Of a stretch of 64,000 bases of DNA, positions 2,448 to 60,514 are shown piece by piece (the first letter of the stretch is position 1; each line of letters opens with the position of its first letter). The DNA comes from Enterobacteria phage Ac3. The translations under genes and the position numbers were made by a program. A model generated the notes under the pieces. The model worked only from the letters and a program-made list of their open reading frames with translations, was not told where the DNA came from and made no database searches. The stretch is taken from sequence record OK040907. One strand, 5' to 3'.

Positions 2448-4267
2448 TACTGGCTCATCCATTCTTTACGAAGGTCAGCATTATCTCCCATGAGCATTTC
2501 AAAAAGCTCTTTCCAGTTCTCAGGAAGTTTAACAACATCATATACTGGATTTTGAATCATCTCACGATATTCAGATTTTTCCAAAGAGCCAAGTCCCTTA
2601 ATATAACGGATACTATGTTTAGGTAGAGCATCTTTAGCACTCTCATATTCAGCGACTGTATAAAACCATTCTTGTTTTTTACCGACCTGAGCGATGATTA
2701 CAGGAGTTTTGACAAAGCGAATTCGTCCTTGCTCAAACAGTTCTGGCCAATTACTAAAAAATCCAAGAAGAGAAGGATAAATGCTTCCTAGACCATCATG
2801 GTCAGCATCAGTCATAATAGCAATATTGCGATAATTCAAGTTTTCAGCTTTTTCACCAAGAACTAGACCAGTGATTGCGCAAATATCAAATAGTTCTTTG
2901 TTTTTAAGCATATCGGCATATGACATACCCCAGCTATTAAGAACTTTACCGCGCAATGGATAACCACCATGAAGTTCTTTATCGCGAACATCAATAAGAT
3001 ATCCGATAGCTGAATCACCCTCAGTCAAGAACAATGTAGTGTCAGCATCTTTACCGCAAAGATTCGCTTTAATATGTTTATGAACCTTAGCTTTAGAAGC
3101 CTTTTTAGCTGCTTTAGTTTCTGCTGCTTTTTCTGCCGCCAATTTACGAGCCAAAGCAGCTTCAATAATCGGCATTAAAATTGCTTCATTATTTAGAATA
3201 GCGCGTGAAATCTTTTTAGCATCAAGCTGAATATGACTACGAATTTCGCCAAATGGAGAAGTCAAACGCTCTTTAGTTTGAGAATCAAATCGCATGTTTT
3301 TCATATCACGAACAAACATAACGATAGTCAAACATTCTTTGACACGTGCTTTAGTTACATCAATTTTGAATTTACGTTTGATTTGTGGAATAAGGTCTTC
3401 ACAAATATCATCCATAACGCAGTCAATGTGATGGCCACCATTCTTAGTGTGAATGTTATTCACGTAAGTTAATTGACGAAATCCATCCGGTGAACGACCA
3501 ACCGCAATAGAACAATTTTCTTGTTCTTGAACGATAGCATGTTCATCATACTGTCGTGCATATTTCTTAAAATTGCCCTGAACCTTTTTACCATTAAAGG
3601 TAAATTGAATATCAGGATAAACGACAGCAAGTGTCTGGAGACGATCCAGTGTAATGTCAAGATAAACCTGGGACAGCTCATTAGTTTCAAATGACATAAA
3701 ATCAGGAATGAAAGTAACACGAGTTCCTTTCCATTTTCCAGGAATAGTTTCCCAGGATTTATTTTCCATACCATTTGAACAACGAACTACAATATTATTT
3801 TGACCATCGCCAGTTTCACCAACAAACATCACAGAAAAAATGTTTGTCAAACTAGAACCAACGCCATTCATACCACCGGTGACGCGTTCTTTATCATCAC
3901 CGAAGTTACCACCTGCTTTTGGAATAGTCCAGGCAGCAACAGGACCAGGAATTTCTTCACCAGTAGGTGTTTTAACCATCGCTTGTGGAATACCACGACC
4001 GTTATCTTCAACTGTTACTTGATTGTTTTTGATAGTAACATTAATTTTATTTGCGAATTTAAACTTAGTACGAATACCTTCATCTACTGAGTTATCGATA
4101 ATTTCATCAATAAGCTTAACAAGACCAGGTACATACTGAACACTTTCCCATTTACCAAACAGAAAGCGCTCATGCATTTCATTAGCAGAAGAGCCAATAT
4201 ACATGCCGCTACGCTTTTTGATATGTTCAATATCGCTCAGAATTTTAATTTCATTCTTAATCATCAC
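2447..4267 (-). CDS. 39: DNA topoisomerase II large subunit, single fused ORF (GyrB-like ATPase plus C-terminal part)
   Basis: 606-aa ORF starting MMIKNEIKILSDIEHIKKRSGMYIGS; continuous ORF without the split gene 39/gene 60 arrangement. Confidence 0.9.
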   Translation of the reverse strand: MMIKNEIKILSDIEHIKKRSGMYIGSSANEMHERFLFGKWESVQYVPGLVKLIDEIIDNSVDEGIRTKFKFANKINVTIKNNQVTVEDNGRGIPQAMVKTPTGEEIPGPVAAWTIPKAGGNFGDDKERVTGGMNGVGSSLTNIFSVMFVGETGDGQNNIVVRCSNGMENKSWETIPGKWKGTRVTFIPDFMSFETNELSQVYLDITLDRLQTLAVVYPDIQFTFNGKKVQGNFKKYARQYDEHAIVQEQENCSIAVGRSPDGFRQLTYVNNIHTKNGGHHIDCVMDDICEDLIPQIKRKFKIDVTKARVKECLTIVMFVRDMKNMRFDSQTKERLTSPFGEIRSHIQLDAKKISRAILNNEAILMPIIEAALARKLAAEKAAETKAAKKASKAKVHKHIKANLCGKDADTTLFLTEGDSAIGYLIDVRDKELHGGYPLRGKVLNSWGMSYADMLKNKELFDICAITGLVLGEKAENLNYRNIAIMTDADHDGLGSIYPSLLGFFSNWPELFEQGRIRFVKTPVIIAQVGKKQEWFYTVAEYESAKDALPKHSIRYIKGLGSLEKSEYREMIQNPVYDVVKLPENWKELFEMLMGDNADLRKEWMSQ

Positions 4268-15932: not shown

Positions 15933-16451
15933 TTAATAACCTCGGTCTTGACGTGCGAAATTTTCAGCATTTTTCAGGTAATAAAGTTTAAAGATTTCTT
16001 CAGCTGTAAGACCAAGACCCTGGAACATATTCAGAACGAAATGGAGAATATCAATCATTTCAAATTTAATTTCCAATTGGTCTTGTGGAGACAAATCAGT
16101 AATCAGAGTTTCACGGCGTTCACCATGCTGCGACTTCCAAGGCTTCCATACAGCAGATGCATCTTTTTCACCATTGCTCATACCACCAAGAGAAGTCAGA
16201 AGTTCGCGGAATTCATCATCAATATAATCTTTCTGATTACGCAGCCAATCAACAACTTCACCTGCGGTAGCCAAATCATCAGGATGACGGTTATATTCAG
16301 GTTTATCTTTAGCTAAACGAACCTGTAGAGATTTCTGCATATCAAGCATAACCTGCAGCGGGTCTTTTTCATCACCAAGAATATCCCAGTATTCATTTTG
16401 AGCTTTATCAGCGCCTTCAATCAGTTGTGAACATTCGTTAAAGTAAGCCAT
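15933..16451 (-). CDS. 56: dCTP pyrophosphatase (dCTPase/dUTPase)
   Basis: 171 aa from internal Met MAYFNECSQLIEG with AGGAAA RBS; the longer 203-aa ORF has a hydrophobic N-terminal extension judged spurious. Confidence 0.8.
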   Translation of the reverse strand: MAYFNECSQLIEGADKAQNEYWDILGDEKDPLQVMLDMQKSLQVRLAKDKPEYNRHPDDLATAGEVVDWLRNQKDYIDDEFRELLTSLGGMSNGEKDASAVWKPWKSQHGERRETLITDLSPQDQLEIKFEMIDILHFVLNMFQGLGLTAEEIFKLYYLKNAENFARQDRGY

Positions 16452-16522
16452 TATTTTTCCTTTCAATTCATGGGTTAGTAGATTAATTATACAATAAATA
16501 TATAAAGCAATAAGGAGGACAT

Positions 16523-16723
16523 ATGGTACAAAAATTAATGGCACTTGTTAATGCCATCAAAGGTAATAAAAAGCGTATAGCTTTTACTATTTCTGCTATG
16601 GTAGGAATTTTACTCTGGAACTTTATTTTATCACCAATTGCAATTGCGCATGGTGTTAATATTCCAGTAGTTACTCTTGATACATTTGTAGATTTAGCAT
16701 TTGCTTTAGTTGGGTTAATTTAA
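16523..16723 (+). CDS. small hydrophobic membrane peptide (plus strand)
   Basis: 66-aa ORF with strong RBS taaggaggacatATG; convergent with primase gene; only plus-strand native-composition gene seen. Confidence 0.5.
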   Translation: MVQKLMALVNAIKGNKKRIAFTISAMVGILLWNFILSPIAIAHGVNIPVVTLDTFVDLAFALVGLI

Positions 16724-17748
16724 ATCTTAGCATATTTAGATAACCGCATTTTAGCCATCAACCCCTGTGCAATATTATTTTTCATATATTCCATAATTTG
16801 TTCAGGGGTTGCACCTTCCTTTCTAATCATATCATTAACATCTTTTGATTTCCAGGGAGATTTATCCCAAAACATAACCCTTTCTCCTGCATCAACTAAT
16901 TTAGTCATTCGTTTGATAGTGTCAGGGTGACGAGGTTCATTATCTAAAACCCACACACGTCTATCTTTAAATGGAACAACTTCTAGGTCTAATTGACCAC
17001 CTGTAATAGCTATACCATTTTCAATAAAAAGTGAATCTATAGGTCCTTCTAGAACATATACATCACCATCTTTAACTCGTTCGACTCCATAGATTTTTGT
17101 TGCTTCAGGATAAGCTTTGATAGTGATATATTTTTGGGGAGCATCTTTCTTTAATGCACGTCCTTGAAAAGACTCGGCTTTTCCATTAGCATTATAAATT
17201 GGAATAACAAGACGAGGCTCAGAAATTTCCTTTTTGTATGTTCCCGGTGCTATGCTATTAACTAATTTAGGCCATTCAGTTGTAAACCAAAGATATTTCC
17301 ATTTATCCTTTGGAATACAACGAGCTTTTACATATTTTATAATTGGATGGTCTTCCGCCAGTTTATCTAATCTAACACATGACGGAAGAGATTTAATCAT
17401 TTTCTTCTCAGGTTGTTTAGGAAGTTCTTTAGGTTTTTCTACTGGACGACTTTTACCTTTTTCTTTTCTTATTTCAAAGATATACTCACGATATAAATCA
17501 GGTTCAAACTCCTTTAAATATATTCCGATTGGTGCATGATAGTTACAGTTATAACAATGAATATTTCCTTCATTATTATCACCATAATACCATCCACGAG
17601 CTTTATTCTGGTCGGTTTTTGAATCTCCGCAAACAGGGCATCTAAACCGTAATTTAAAAGTTGAACTATTATTTACTTGTGTGAATTTAGGTAAATGAGC
17701 CAATGCACGATACGCAAACTCATTATCAATCCAAGGTATTGATGACAT
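16720..17748 (-). CDS. 61: DNA primase
   Basis: 342-aa ORF with N-terminal zinc-ribbon CPVCGDS...CYNCNYH; matches T4 gp61 length. Confidence 0.9.
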   Translation of the reverse strand: MSSIPWIDNEFAYRALAHLPKFTQVNNSSTFKLRFRCPVCGDSKTDQNKARGWYYGDNNEGNIHCYNCNYHAPIGIYLKEFEPDLYREYIFEIRKEKGKSRPVEKPKELPKQPEKKMIKSLPSCVRLDKLAEDHPIIKYVKARCIPKDKWKYLWFTTEWPKLVNSIAPGTYKKEISEPRLVIPIYNANGKAESFQGRALKKDAPQKYITIKAYPEATKIYGVERVKDGDVYVLEGPIDSLFIENGIAITGGQLDLEVVPFKDRRVWVLDNEPRHPDTIKRMTKLVDAGERVMFWDKSPWKSKDVNDMIRKEGATPEQIMEYMKNNIAQGLMAKMRLSKYAKI

Positions 17749-17750
17749 TT

Positions 17751-17915
17751 TTACTCTTCTTTTTCTTTAGATTCCTCTTTTTTCTTTTTAGGAATCTGTT
17801 CAGGACCTTTATTTACTACAGCACCTGATGTTGTTCCAGTAGAGATATTTTCAGGATTACCACCTGAATCTCCAGCTACCATATCTTCTTTAATAAATTC
17901 TTTATATGTTTTCAT
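17751..17915 (-). CDS. small hypothetical protein
   Basis: 54-aa ORF below track cutoff, stop immediately before gene 61 start. Confidence 0.4.
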   Translation of the reverse strand: MKTYKEFIKEDMVAGDSGGNPENISTGTTSGAVVNKGPEQIPKKKKEESKEKEE

Positions 17916-17916
17916 A

Positions 17917-18273
17917 TTAACCTCTATTCATAAAAGCATTAAAAATTTGGTCATCAATAGATGGAATAGCAACCTTTTCGGCATCATTTAGCAAATCATT
18001 AATTTCATCAGATAACATAACACATGTGCCTTTATTTCCTGTAATTGTTACTGCACAATTACGAACGTTTTCTTTATCAAATTTTAGGTTAATATTTTCG
18101 TAGTGAAAATCCTTTAATGCCGAATATATCTTTAAAATGAAATTGTCTTTTACTACAATAAACCCAACCTCACTATTAAAACATGGTTCATGGAAACTGT
18201 AATAAACCTTTTCATCTATAAAATCGTATGAAATTTTTTCCATTTTTAAATATGAAAATTCAGAACTATACAT
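17917..18273 (-). CDS. hypothetical protein sharing a C-terminal tail with 18275-18907
   Basis: 118 aa ending SIDDQIFNAFMNRG; native codons. Confidence 0.5.
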   Translation of the reverse strand: MYSSEFSYLKMEKISYDFIDEKVYYSFHEPCFNSEVGFIVVKDNFILKIYSALKDFHYENINLKFDKENVRNCAVTITGNKGTCVMLSDEINDLLNDAEKVAIPSIDDQIFNAFMNRG

Positions 18274-31909: not shown

Positions 31910-31960
31910 AGTTCCTCCGTATAAATATGTTTATCACTCGCTGTATCAAAAGGATATGTT

Positions 31961-32674
31961 ATGAACTATAAACTGATCTACGAAAAACTGATCAGCAACG
32001 CCAAATCCCGTAAACTGGACTGTTACACCGAGTCTCATCACATTATCCCGCGCTGCCTGAATGGCTCCGATGACGCGAGCAACCTGGTAGACCTGACCCC
32101 TGAGGAACATTACGTTGCACACCAGCTCCTGGTTAAAATTTATCCGTCCGAGCCAAAACTGATTTACGCTGCCAACATGATGACTGTATCCACTAAATAT
32201 GCTAAACGCAATAACAAAACGTTCGGTTGGATCCGTCGCAAACTGTGGGAAATCGAAAAAAACAAAGAATTCTCTCAGGAAACCCGTAAGAAAATGTCCG
32301 ATGCGGTTGCCAACAAGGCGCGCCTGACCTGCCCGCACTGTGGTAAATCTGGCCTGTCTGGTAACATGAATCGTTGGCACTTCGATAATTGCCCGAACCA
32401 CCCGAATCCGAAAGTGCGTCCTCCGATGTCTAAAGAACACCGTAATAACATCAGCAACGGTCTGAAAGCAATTATCCTGGAGGAAACCTCTTGCGAATTC
32501 TGCGGTATGATCGGCAAGAAATGCGTGATTGCAGCTCACCGTAACTTCTGTAAGAAAAACCCGAACGGCCGTAAGAAAACCGAGAAAACCGGTACTTGCG
32601 TGCACTGCGGTAAAGTTACGACCTTTGGCAACCTGAGCCGTTGGCACAACGACAACTGCAAGCACAAACACTAA
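31961..32674 (+). CDS. HNH homing-endonuclease-like protein with C-terminal Cys-rich zinc-finger repeats; codon-optimised-looking
   Basis: 237-aa plus-strand ORF with ESHHIIPRCLNGSDDASNLVDLTPEEHYVAH motif; ctg/ccg/cgt codons; stop overlaps gene 46 stop (convergent). Confidence 0.65.
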   Translation: MNYKLIYEKLISNAKSRKLDCYTESHHIIPRCLNGSDDASNLVDLTPEEHYVAHQLLVKIYPSEPKLIYAANMMTVSTKYAKRNNKTFGWIRRKLWEIEKNKEFSQETRKKMSDAVANKARLTCPHCGKSGLSGNMNRWHFDNCPNHPNPKVRPPMSKEHRNNISNGLKAIILEETSCEFCGMIGKKCVIAAHRNFCKKNPNGRKKTEKTGTCVHCGKVTTFGNLSRWHNDNCKHKH

Positions 32675-34359: not shown

Positions 34360-34374
34360 TTTGTATCCAATTGT

Positions 34375-35225
34375 TTAGAGGCTAGAGAATTCTTTTACCA
34401 GGGCTTGCAGGCTAGCTTCGATCGGATAACCATTTTTCACCAGCATTTTACGGAACATCACGTGTTTAGGACGGTTATAGCTGATCCACAGTTCGTACAG
34501 TTTGTCTTTGTTGTCCCAGTGGTAACCTTTGCGACGGCTGGCAATGTGAGCCTTACGAATCTCCGGATTTTTCCAGCTTGCAGCGACAGAGTTGGAAATC
34601 GGCTTTTGATATTTTGAGACGGGCACAGCGGAGCGAAAGGCTTACGAGTGTTGAGTTTGGTGCGTTTCATGGTCAGACCGTTTGCCAGATGCCACTGGAA
34701 TTTCTGTTTAGTTTTGAAGTTATTCAGACGTTCTTTGTTATCCTTACGGTTTTTCGCTACGGAGAAGTATTTCAGTGCGCGTTCACGAGCTGCATTACGG
34801 TTCTGTGGGTTGGAGTAATACTGTTGCAGGCGTTTAGAAATGGTATCGGAAACATCCTGTTTGATAAAAGAGTATTCTGCCGCAATCAGATCAACTTCTG
34901 CCAGGCTGAGGTTTTTATAGGTTTTGCCAGACATCATACGATTCAGCGCGTTCAGCATTTTACCGTTTTTACCTTTTGCCAGGAGGAAGTGTGCTTTAAA
35001 GTGGTTAAAGTGGCTGAGGTTCACCAGGTTCCAGGTAGATTTGAGATATTCCGGGAAGATAGATTTCGGCAGCACGTGATGTGCTTCGGTCTTGCCCGGA
35101 GTCTTAACGGTGCTGTTAACGCTAATGAAGTTGATATAGGACTTAGCGTCTTCCTCAGACAGCGCCAGTTTTTCCACCAGTTCTTTGATCAGGAATTCAT
35201 CGTTGATGTCCAGTTTGAAGTTTTT
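34375..35225 (-). pseudogene. HNH endonuclease-like gene, disrupted (frameshift, no canonical start); codon-optimised-looking
   Basis: EAHHVLPKSIFPEY HNH motif in one frame (to about 34640); C-terminal part continues in another frame (34375-34626) after an in-frame TAA; no ATG upstream of the recoded N-terminal segment. Confidence 0.45.
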
Positions 35226-60080: not shown

Positions 60081-60083
60081 TAT

Positions 60084-60514
60084 TTATTTCGGTTTACCTT
60101 CCTTCACGAAGTCTGGGTACGGATAAAAGCCAGAGTAGAAACCTTCGCCTTTGTGGTTGATACAACCTTTGTTGGAACAATAGCACCAGTAATCGAAATC
60201 GCAAGCCATTTCGTCGTTGCACAGGGCGAAAACGACCGGCCATTTACATTTTTCACAGTGCGCGTTTTTCAGGATGGAAGTCTGGGATACCGCCAGGTGA
60301 CTTTCAGGCAGTATTCCTCCACATGCTGTTTGCGACCTTTCTTGTCGATGAAGGTGTATTCAACGAAGGTACCGATGTAATCTTTATCCACGTCGTGCGG
60401 AGAGTTGATCGGGCACTTAGTACGGCAGATGCGTTCCCACTGACGAATGATTACAGCCTTGTTTTTCGGGTCGAACGGGTGTGGATAATGTACTTTTACA
60501 GCAGCGGCTCCCAA
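60084..60514 (-). pseudogene. Cys-rich protein gene split across two reading frames; codon-optimised-looking
   Basis: frame A (TTG start in track) has protein-like sequence to about 60300; frame B continues with HCEKCKWPVVFALCNDEMACDFDYWCYCSNKGCINHKGEG... to a TAA at 60084-60086; no ATG. Confidence 0.4.

What the first reader, a model, noticed from the sequence alone, without database searches (positions are those of the whole stretch)
16523..16723. Lone plus-strand gene for a hydrophobic peptide between genes 56 and 61
In a region where every native gene is on the minus strand, a 66-aa plus-strand ORF with a strong RBS (taaggaggacatATG) encodes a membrane-like peptide and ends convergent with the primase gene. 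It may be an antisense-embedded accessory gene.
Basis: seen in the sequence. Interest (0 to 1): 0.4.

Follow-up and report, generated by a model that had tools for sequence, protein, structure and literature searches.

The report
Conserved late membrane-protein gene beside primase
The 66-codon plus-strand ORF is a real, conserved gene of T4-type phages that most likely makes a small inner-membrane protein late in infection; it is already annotated as a hypothetical protein in this phage (though not in the curated T4 records) and its function is unknown.

Summary
The window is phage RB51/RB68. The ORF at 16523-16723(+) is there exactly as described. It is already annotated as RB32ORF030w and belongs to PHROG 2024 (function unknown).

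It is a real gene:
- It is intact at 60-69 codons in at least nine named genera of T4-like phages plus two unclassified metagenomic lineages.
- It is always the lone plus-strand gene between the gene-56 side and primase gene 61.
- dN/dS is 0.09-0.43 and substitutions favour third codon positions.

A late-promoter core, ATAAATA, lies 15-33 nt before the ATG in 10 of 11 lineages. The motif is otherwise five-fold depleted in the window and mostly sits before known late genes. T4 early and middle transcription is all counter-clockwise, so this gene is almost certainly transcribed late (gp55-dependent).

The product has a basic N-terminus, one clear transmembrane helix with invariant Trp-Asn and Pro, and a short hydrophobic C-terminal helix. 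It has no homology to any characterised family.

In Tequatrovirus the ORF lies antisense to the predicted gene-61 3' tail and terminator.

The curated T4 records omit this gene. No expression data or biochemical role is known. This is an ordinary finding with a modest annotation and biology angle.

The parts
16493..16500 (+). Predicted gp55-type late promoter box AATAAATA (TATAAATA consensus with A at -13). The core ATAAATA is at 16494-16500.
   Evidence: The core is exact in 10 of 11 lineages, 15-33 nt before the ATG, while the flanks diverge. There are only 7 ATAAATA sites in the 64-kb window against 34.8 +/- 6 expected, and four of the other six sit before soc, a homing-endonuclease gene, gene 49 and rI.1/rI. 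The A(-13) variant occurs at 9 of the 50 listed T4 late promoters (PMC2988020). Activity has not been measured.
16506..16506 (+). Inferred transcription start, 6 nt after the box, giving a 17-nt leader.
   Evidence: Inference from the published -13 to -6 position of the T4 late box (PMC1524935). No 5'-end data are available.
16512..16518 (+). Shine-Dalgarno sequence AAGGAGG.
   Evidence: GGAG or AGGAGG is kept in all lineages examined.
16523..16723 (+). Coding sequence of 66 aa plus stop; gene RB32ORF030w / RB51ORF032; PHROG 2024.
   Evidence: dN/dS is 0.09-0.43. It is intact in all relatives examined.
16523..16576 (+). Residues 1-18: amphipathic N-terminal helix followed by the basic cluster KGNKKR. 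Predicted to be cytoplasmic.
   Evidence: AlphaFold2 helix 2-14. There are 5 Lys/Arg and no acidic residues before the membrane helix. The cytoplasmic placement follows the positive-inside rule and is an inference.
16577..16648 (+). Residues 19-42: transmembrane helix carrying the family-invariant W32, N33 and P38.
   Evidence: AlphaFold2 helix 16-42. Mean hydropathy is 2.0. Residues 21-41 were predicted transmembrane in the RB69 orthologue (PMC1524935 supplement).
16649..16720 (+). Residues 43-66: conserved turn (G44, P48), then an acidic residue at position 53 and a hydrophobic or amphipathic C-terminal helix. It is either periplasmic and membrane-surface, or a short second membrane segment.
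   Evidence: The topology is unresolved.
16525..16560 (-). Terminator-like hairpin plus U-run on the minus strand, inside codons 1-13 of the ORF. It is the likely end of the gene-61 transcription unit.
   Evidence: Free energy is -12.4 kcal/mol with z = -3.0 in RB51, and -8.9 kcal/mol with z = -2.1 in T4. A minus-strand terminator is annotated at the homologous place in SA20RB and fPS-65. It was not found in the other seven lineages folded.
16720..16723 (.). TTAA: the overlapping stop codons of the ORF (TAA, plus strand) and gene 61 (TAA, minus strand).
   Evidence: The same 4-nt overlap with the convergent gene is seen in RB69, ST0, PEi20, S16, Marfa, L021 and L024.
16486..16508 (-). Context: a divergent MotA-type middle promoter (GCTT-N13-TATAAT) for gene 56 that overlaps the late box on the other strand.
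   Evidence: Read from the sequence. It is annotated at the homologous place in SA20RB.

Best explanation
This is a real, conserved phage gene for a 66-residue inner-membrane protein, expressed late in infection.

Shown here:
- The reading frame, start codon and Shine-Dalgarno sequence are kept across at least nine named genera, down to about 20-30% amino-acid identity.
- The frame is under purifying selection.
- Its place and orientation never change.
- An ATAAATA box sits at a near-constant distance upstream.

Inferred:
- RNA polymerase carrying the phage late sigma factor gp55 (with gp33 and the gp45 clamp) starts at about 16506. All T4 early and middle transcription runs the other way, so only a late promoter can serve a plus-strand gene here.
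- The short leader with a 7-nt Shine-Dalgarno sequence gives efficient translation.
- The protein inserts with its basic N-terminus in the cytoplasm and one membrane helix (residues 19-42).
- The short conserved turn and C-terminal helix lie at or beyond the outer face of the inner membrane.
- The invariant Trp-Asn and Pro inside the helix suggest it works by helix-helix contact, with itself or with a larger membrane protein, as many small membrane proteins do.
- My best guess for the process is a late envelope event such as lysis timing or lysis inhibition. That guess is weak, about 1 in 4.

At the RNA level, in Tequatrovirus the early gene-61 transcript is predicted to run antisense through the whole ORF to a terminator in codons 1-13. 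The late ORF transcript has no convincing terminator and should run antisense into gene 61. The two transcription units are therefore mutually antisense at different times of infection.
For: Identity and family:
- The window is 100% identical to RB51 and RB68, and the gene is annotated there.
- It matches PHROG 2024 at E = 1.5e-31 over its full length.

Coding:
- tblastn with the RB51 protein finds 692 phage records, 686 of them at 80% query coverage or more.
- Two distant family members find 279 and 97 more, partly overlapping, records.
- The ORF is intact at 60-69 codons in Tequatro-, Mosig-, Gapriver-, Dhaka-, Gelderland-, Jiaoda-, Marfavirus, PEi20-like and Moon phages, and in two metagenomic lineages.
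- Within-genus dN/dS is 0.09-0.43.
- Three independent within-genus pairs give 15, 2 and 27 substitutions at codon positions 1, 2 and 3. My chi-square on these numbers is 21.3, p about 2e-5.

Late promoter:
- Conservation of the box.
- Depletion of the motif and the locations of the other sites.
- Literature on variant late promoters and on transcript polarity: PMC2988020 and PMC1524935.

Membrane protein:
- AlphaFold2 gives mean pLDDT 78 with helices at 2-14, 16-42 and 52-63.
- Hydropathy and charge distribution.
- Published transmembrane prediction for RB69ORF029w.

Antisense layout.
Against: - No transcript, ribosome-footprint or peptide evidence was found in the papers I could reach.
- A published profile-HMM (HMMER) scan for promoters in RB69 listed no late or early promoter before RB69ORF029w.
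- In 8 of the 10 lineages that have the box, the -13 base is A, G or C, not the consensus T. Only A(-13) is documented as common, so strength may be low in T4 (G) and Gaprivervirus (C).
- S16 has ATTAAATA instead of the box.
- In RB51 the box overlaps an AT-rich middle-promoter spacer on the other strand.
- Topology is ambiguous. Residues 44-66 are nearly as hydrophobic as the first helix, with mean hydropathy 1.74.
- The functional guess rests on no direct evidence. There were no meaningful hits in Pfam, NCBIfam, PADLOC, PDB sequences or viral structure models.
Confidence: 0.75

Rival explanations
1. It is a holin or pinholin-type lysis protein. The two hydrophobic stretches (19-42 and 44-66) form a helical hairpin that makes membrane lesions late in infection.
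For: - It is small and hydrophobic and has a likely late promoter.
- Residues 44-66 have mean hydropathy 1.74, and in RB69 they contain the most hydrophobic 19-residue window.
- One orthologue (phage OE5505) carries the UniProt name 'Holin'. This is a source label, not a test.
Against: - There is no charged hydrophilic C-terminal tail; the protein ends in hydrophobic residues.
- AlphaFold2 gives only a 12-residue second helix.
- The second segment carries conserved acidic, and in distant lineages basic, residues.
- It matches no holin family in Pfam, and the only real hits among viral structure models are its own relatives.
- From general knowledge, T4-type phages already have the holin T, and this gene is not near any lysis gene.
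Confidence: 0.12
2. The first hydrophobic stretch is a cleavable signal peptide, and the product is a secreted or periplasmic peptide of about 24 residues (HGVNIPVV...).
For: - It has a basic N-region.
- There is an invariant Pro at -5 and Ala-x-Ala at -3/-1 (A40-I-A42) in Tequatro- and most Gaprivervirus sequences.
Against: - The hydrophobic core is about 24 residues, long for a Sec signal peptide.
- The -1 residue is Thr, Ser or Phe in other lineages.
- The published SignalP result for RB69ORF029w was negative and a transmembrane segment was called instead.
Confidence: 0.07
3. It is a type I toxin-like module: a toxic hydrophobic peptide whose mRNA is held in check by the fully complementary early gene-61 3' tail.
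For: - It is a small hydrophobic peptide.
- In RB51 and T4 the predicted gene-61 terminator lies in codons 1-13, so the early RNA would cover nearly the whole ORF.
Against: - The minus-strand terminator and long 3' tail were not found in the other lineages examined, although the ORF is.
- The predicted early RNA end does not cover the Shine-Dalgarno sequence.
- The gene has its own conserved late-type promoter, so timing needs no antisense control.
- Toxicity is unknown.
Confidence: 0.05
4. The main function is at the RNA level. A late antisense transcript reads into gene 61 to shut off primase expression, and the ORF is secondary.
For: - There is no convincing plus-strand terminator after the ORF in RB51, T4 or RB69.
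- The stop codons overlap convergently.
Against: - Purifying selection acts on the protein sequence.
- In lineage L021 a strong terminator follows the ORF at once (z = -3.8).
- In DK-13 and Bp7 a homing-endonuclease gene separates the ORF from primase. Antisense coverage of gene 61 is therefore not conserved.
Confidence: 0.05
5. It is a chance ORF in a non-coding spacer, and the conservation reflects promoter and terminator signals only.
For: - Chance plus-strand ORFs of 88-205 codons occur nearby.
- The region holds a middle promoter and a terminator.
Against: - The frame stays open, with the same ends, at about 20-30% amino-acid identity and saturated synonymous change.
- The codon-position bias has p about 2e-5 (my arithmetic).
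- The Shine-Dalgarno sequence and ATG are conserved.
- The hairpin covers only about 35 of the 201 nt and is genus-specific.
Confidence: 0.03

Closest known systems
RB69ORF029w / RB32ORF030w family (PHROG 2024)
   Same: It is the same family: a full-length match at E = 1.5e-31, the same position and strand, and a transmembrane segment already predicted for the RB69 member in 2006.
   Different: Nothing differs. The family simply has no characterised member, no Pfam or NCBIfam model, and is missing from the curated T4 and T2 records.
T4 lysis-control membrane proteins (antiholin RI, holin T)
   Same: These are small or single-pass inner-membrane proteins with the N-terminus inside and a periplasmic C-terminal part. 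In this window rI.1/rI is also preceded by a TATAAATA box.
   Different: There is no sequence or fold similarity. The part beyond the membrane helix is only about 24 mostly hydrophobic residues, whereas RI and T have sizeable soluble periplasmic domains (general knowledge). No genetic link to lysis is known.
Class II holins and pinholins (e.g. phage 21 S68)
   Same: Similar size, and two consecutive hydrophobic stretches.
   Different: There is no charged C-terminal tail, the second stretch is predicted as only a 12-residue helix, and there is no homology.
Bacterial small membrane-protein regulators (e.g. AcrZ, MgtR, MgrB, KdpF)
   Same: It is under 70 residues with a single membrane helix, and its conserved residues lie inside the helix (W32, N33, P38). 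That fits action by helix-helix contact with a larger membrane protein. The comparison is from general knowledge.
   Different: There is no homology and no known partner. This is a working analogy only.
Type I toxins (Hok, TisB and similar)
   Same: It is a small hydrophobic peptide with a complementary overlapping transcript in Tequatrovirus.
   Different: The overlap is with an mRNA tail rather than a dedicated antisense RNA, it is not conserved outside one genus, and toxicity is untested.

Membership tests
PHROG 2024 / RB69ORF029w family | Full-length sequence match to the family profile | tested here: met
   E = 1.5e-31, residues 2-66 against profile positions 1-65 of 65.
PHROG 2024 / RB69ORF029w family | Lone plus-strand gene between the gene-56 side and primase gene 61 | tested here: met
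T4 late gene (gp55-dependent) | TATAAATA-type box about one helical turn before the transcription start, just upstream of the gene | tested here: met
   AATAAATA at 16493-16500. The core is exact in 10 of 11 lineages. The A(-13) variant is documented at 9 of the 50 listed T4 late promoters.
T4 late gene (gp55-dependent) | Orientation compatible only with late transcription | tested here: met
   The gene is on the plus (clockwise) strand. All early and middle T4 transcripts are counter-clockwise (PMC2988020).
T4 late gene (gp55-dependent) | Transcript appears late and depends on gp55, gp33 and gp45 | not testable with these tools
   No expression data were found.
Holin | At least one transmembrane domain | tested here: met
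Holin | Charged, hydrophilic C-terminal tail | tested here: not met
   The protein ends ...AFALVGLI. There are no Lys or Arg after residue 18 in RB51.
Holin | Homology to a described holin family | tested here: not met
   No Pfam or NCBIfam hit at E up to 10. Structure search among viral models finds only its own relatives.
Holin | Lethal hole formation and endolysin release | not testable with these tools
   Needs an expression experiment.
Sec signal peptide (secreted peptide) | Short hydrophobic core and small residues at -3 and -1 | tested here: inconclusive
   A-I-A is present in RB51, but the core is about 24 residues and the -1 residue is T, S or F in other lineages. SignalP was negative for RB69ORF029w.
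Type I toxin-antitoxin | Conserved cis-antisense RNA covering the toxin mRNA | tested here: not met
   The predicted overlap with the gene-61 3' tail is confined to Tequatrovirus.
Anti-phage defence or counter-defence catalogues | Match to a PADLOC model | tested here: not met
   No hit.

The most novel reading that the evidence does not exclude
A conserved late gene, missing from the curated T4 annotation, encodes a small inner-membrane protein that acts in a late envelope process: lysis timing, lysis inhibition, exclusion, or membrane-linked assembly. It would do so by binding a larger membrane protein through its invariant Trp-Asn/Pro helix. Its late transcript might also interfere with primase mRNA.
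Probability: 0.2. Interest if true: 0.55.

Novelty: already known. Interest (0 to 1): 0.3.

Why it matters
T4 is among the best-studied phages, yet its curated reference records lack this gene. Studies built on that annotation never test it; the CRISPRi-ART library, for example, was designed only against annotated coding sequences.

The gene is one of only two plus-strand genes in 64 kb of early region. It is kept at one spot across roughly a thousand sequenced phages of Escherichia, Shigella, Salmonella, Klebsiella, Yersinia, Edwardsiella and other hosts.

Adding it to the T4 gene list and testing a knockout would be cheap. It could uncover another small membrane player in the late stage of infection. 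As it stands, this is an annotated hypothetical protein and nothing categorically new.

Tried and rejected
- **Family libraries.** Pfam, NCBIfam and PADLOC gave no hits.
- **Solved structures.** A PDB sequence profile search gave only a meaningless E = 2.5 hit.
- **Structure search.** Foldseek of the AlphaFold2 model against viral models found only the gene's own relatives.
- **RNA families and tRNAs.** Rfam and ARAGORN found nothing relevant in the region.
- **Exhaustive profile search.** HMMER against 1.84 billion representative proteins found only 8 with E up to 0.001. The three whose genomic context I checked (P0060, P0079, P0080) are in T4-like phages and three others (P0029, P0068, P0077) are near-identical to sequenced phage members, so there are no distant characterised relatives.
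- **Plus-strand terminator after the ORF.** It is not convincing in RB51, T4, RB69, L024 or DK-13 (z between -0.6 and +0.2). Only L021 has one.
- **Minus-strand terminator as the reason for conservation.** Rejected, because the hairpin is genus-specific.
- **Literature.** Searches for the ORF names, T4 ribosome profiling, T4 start-site mapping and T4 functional genomics gave no mention of this ORF. Miller et al. 2003 (PMC150520), which lists the T4 late promoters, is not held.
- **Published RB69 promoter scan.** The published profile-HMM scan lists none before this gene. I treat that as weak negative evidence, because a 43-nt model trained on canonical promoters can miss variants.
- **Dual-start idea.** The first six residues of RB51 (Met1 ... 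Lys4 ... Met6) resemble a dual-start motif, but this is not conserved in other genera.

Full report
**What the window is.** The 651 bases around the finding are 100% identical, at the same coordinates, to Enterobacteria phages RB51 and RB68, genus Tequatrovirus. The window is therefore the first 64 kb of that genome, the early-gene region that starts at rIIA.

**The observation.**
- An ATG at 16523 opens a 66-codon frame ending in TAA at 16721-16723.
- AAGGAGG lies at 16512-16518.
- The pattern AAGGAGG-N3-9-ATG occurs once in the whole window on either strand, at this ORF. About 0.7 are expected by chance, so this alone proves nothing.
- The ORF fills the gap between gene 56 (15933-16451, minus) and primase gene 61 (16720-17748, minus). 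The two stop codons overlap in TTAA.
- Only one other annotated gene in the window is on the plus strand, a homing-endonuclease gene at 31961.
- The ORF is already annotated in RB51 as RB32ORF030w, 'similar to RB69ORF029w'. It matches PHROG 2024, function unknown, at E = 1.5e-31.

ORF length by itself is not significant here, since chance plus-strand ORFs of 88-205 codons lie antisense to nearby genes.

**Is it a gene?** Yes.
- tblastn finds it in 692 phage records, 686 with at least 80% query coverage. These are Tequatrovirus at 90% amino-acid identity or more and Mosigvirus and Gaprivervirus at about 45-55%.
- Searches with two distant members add 279 and 97 partly overlapping records from phages of Klebsiella, Salmonella, Citrobacter, Enterobacter, Edwardsiella, Proteus and Pectobacterium.
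- I read the locus in Gelderlandvirus S16, Jiaodavirus PKO111, Dhakavirus Bp7, Marfavirus Marfa, the PEi20-like contig L017 and two metagenomic lineages, L021 and L024.
- In every case a single 60-69-codon plus-strand gene sits between the gene-56 side and primase. It usually overlaps the convergent gene by 4 nt.
- The neighbours vary around it. T4 has dam upstream. fPS-65, Marfa, L021, L024 and PKO111 have other genes there. DK-13 and Bp7 have a homing endonuclease between it and primase.
- Within genera dN/dS is 0.09-0.43. Between genera, synonymous sites are saturated while the frame and length hold.
- Three independent within-genus pairs give 15, 2 and 27 changes at codon positions 1, 2 and 3. 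My chi-square on these counts is 21.3, p about 2e-5.
- No other gene overlaps the ORF, so this constraint is its own.
- An exhaustive profile search of 1.84 billion representative proteins found only eight hits at E up to 0.001, and the three whose genomic context I checked are in T4-like phages. The family appears to be confined to this phage group.

**When is it expressed?**
- Upstream of the ORF the sequence diverges freely between lineages, except for the Shine-Dalgarno sequence and the heptamer ATAAATA.
- The heptamer is exact in 10 of 11 lineages, 15-33 nt before the ATG. This holds for three different upstream contexts within Tequatrovirus. S16 has ATTAAATA instead.
- The T4 late promoter is TATAAATA at -13 to -6 (PMC1524935).
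- Of the 50 listed T4 late promoters, 32 are perfect and nine have A at -13, which is what RB51 has (PMC2988020).
- ATAAATA occurs only seven times on both strands of the window, against 34.8 +/- 6 in shuffles. Same-composition words are several-fold commoner.
- Four of the other six sites lie just before soc, the homing-endonuclease gene, gene 49 and rI.1/rI. All four are intergenic and just upstream of a start codon. By my recollection, soc, gene 49 and rI have known late transcripts in T4; that was not checked here.
- The same review states that all early and middle T4 transcripts are counter-clockwise, while late transcripts have either polarity. A plus-strand gene here can therefore only be late.

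I conclude, by inference, that the gene has its own gp55-type late promoter with a start near 16506.

Caveats:
- No transcript data were found.
- The -13 base is G in T4 and C in Gaprivervirus, and such variants may be weak.
- A published RB69 profile-HMM scan listed no promoter here.
- In RB51 the box overlaps a minus-strand MotA-type middle promoter for gene 56. The box keeps its distance to the ORF rather than to that promoter in the other lineages.

**The product.**
- AlphaFold2 on an 18-sequence alignment gives mean pLDDT 78, with helices at 2-14, 16-42 and 52-63.
- Five Lys/Arg and no acidic residue precede the long helix. The only charged residues after it are two Asp.
- The positive-inside rule therefore puts the N-terminus in the cytoplasm.
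- Nolan et al. predicted one transmembrane segment (21-41) and no signal peptide for the RB69 orthologue.
- Across ten lineages the invariant residues are W32, N33, P38, G44 and G64. A40 and P48 are near-invariant, and there is always an acidic residue at position 53.
- The constraint is therefore centred on the outer half of the membrane helix and the turn after it. A conserved Asn inside a membrane helix is a classic driver of helix-helix association (general knowledge). This is why I favour action through contact with itself or a partner.
- Residues 44-66 are nearly as hydrophobic as the first helix, so a two-helix hairpin cannot be excluded.

**RNA layout.**
- On the minus strand, inside codons 1-13, lies a hairpin followed by UUUUUG: -12.4 kcal/mol, z = -3.0 in RB51, and -8.9 kcal/mol, z = -2.1 in T4.
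- A minus-strand terminator is annotated at the homologous place in two related genomes.
- It would end the gene-61 transcription unit, making the early RNA antisense to almost the whole ORF.
- The hairpin was not found in the other seven lineages I folded. It therefore cannot explain the conservation of the ORF.
- Downstream of the ORF there is no convincing plus-strand terminator in RB51, T4, RB69, L024 or DK-13; only L021 has one. The late RNA probably runs antisense into gene 61 in RB51.

**Comparison with what is known.**
- There are no hits in Pfam, NCBIfam, PADLOC, PDB sequences or viral structure models beyond its own relatives.
- One orthologue carries the database name 'Holin'. The protein lacks the charged C-terminal tail, has no homology to holin families, and is not near lysis genes. 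I do not file it as a holin.
- The signal-peptide reading is inconclusive, and the type I toxin reading fails on conservation of the antisense RNA.

**The T4 annotation gap.** The same ORF, with two amino-acid differences, lies at T4 17738-17938 between dam and gene 61. It is absent from both curated T4 records and from a T2 record. An automatically annotated T4 mutant genome does call it. The functional-genomics papers I could read do not mention it.

**Verdict.** This is a real, conserved, almost certainly late-expressed gene for a small membrane protein of unknown function. It is already annotated in this genome, so as a finding it is ordinary. The useful points are three: the conserved late-promoter box, the breadth of conservation, and its absence from the curated T4 gene list.

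Noticed in passing
window, both strands: 15895(-), 16494(+), 31921(+), 45197(-), 59124(-), 60081(-), 63456(+): The late-promoter core ATAAATA is about five-fold depleted in this early region: 7 sites against 34.8 +/- 6 in shuffles. Most sites sit just before soc, this ORF, the homing-endonuclease gene, gene 49 and rI.1/rI. The sites at 60081(-) and 63456(+), the latter antisense inside vs.6, are unexplained.
   Followed up: partly
T4 NC_000866/AF158101 17738-17938(+); also T2 LC348380, PEi20 AP014714, IME08 NC_014260: The orthologous ORF is not annotated in the curated T4 records or in several other reference genomes.
   Followed up: yes
window 16452-16522 compared with T4 16786-17737: RB51 lacks the dam methyltransferase gene that T4 carries between gene 56 and this ORF. 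That slot holds different genes in other lineages, so it looks like an insertion hot spot.
   Followed up: partly
window 16486-16508(-): A MotA-type middle promoter (GCTT-N13-TATAAT) for gene 56 overlaps the plus-strand late box, so two promoter classes share the same 23 bp on opposite strands.
   Followed up: partly
L005 (DK-13) 2872-3621; L030 (Bp7) 1621-2376: A homing-endonuclease gene is inserted between this ORF and primase in a Gaprivervirus and a Dhakavirus.
   Followed up: no
window 34360-35224: An unannotated 866-nt gap lies between genes 46 and 46.1, and locus tags RB51ORF059 and RB51ORF060 are missing. It holds a 239-codon minus-strand ORF (34458-35177) with an HNH-like motif (EAHHVLP...) and an overlapping 83-codon ORF. 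This is probably a disrupted homing-endonuclease gene.
   Followed up: partly
window 60085-60087(-): The annotated start codon of RB32ORF110c is ATA, inside an ATAAATA site at the junction with ORF111c. The start may be mis-set.
   Followed up: no
window 31921-31961(+): The only other plus-strand gene in the window, homing endonuclease RB32ORF054w, has a perfect TATAAATA 33 nt before its ATG. It too is probably late-transcribed.
   Followed up: no
L021 3200-3230(+): In one metagenomic lineage a perfect 9-bp-stem hairpin plus U-run follows the ORF stop at once (z = -3.8), inside the end of the convergent gene. It looks like a tight terminator shared by the converging genes.
   Followed up: no
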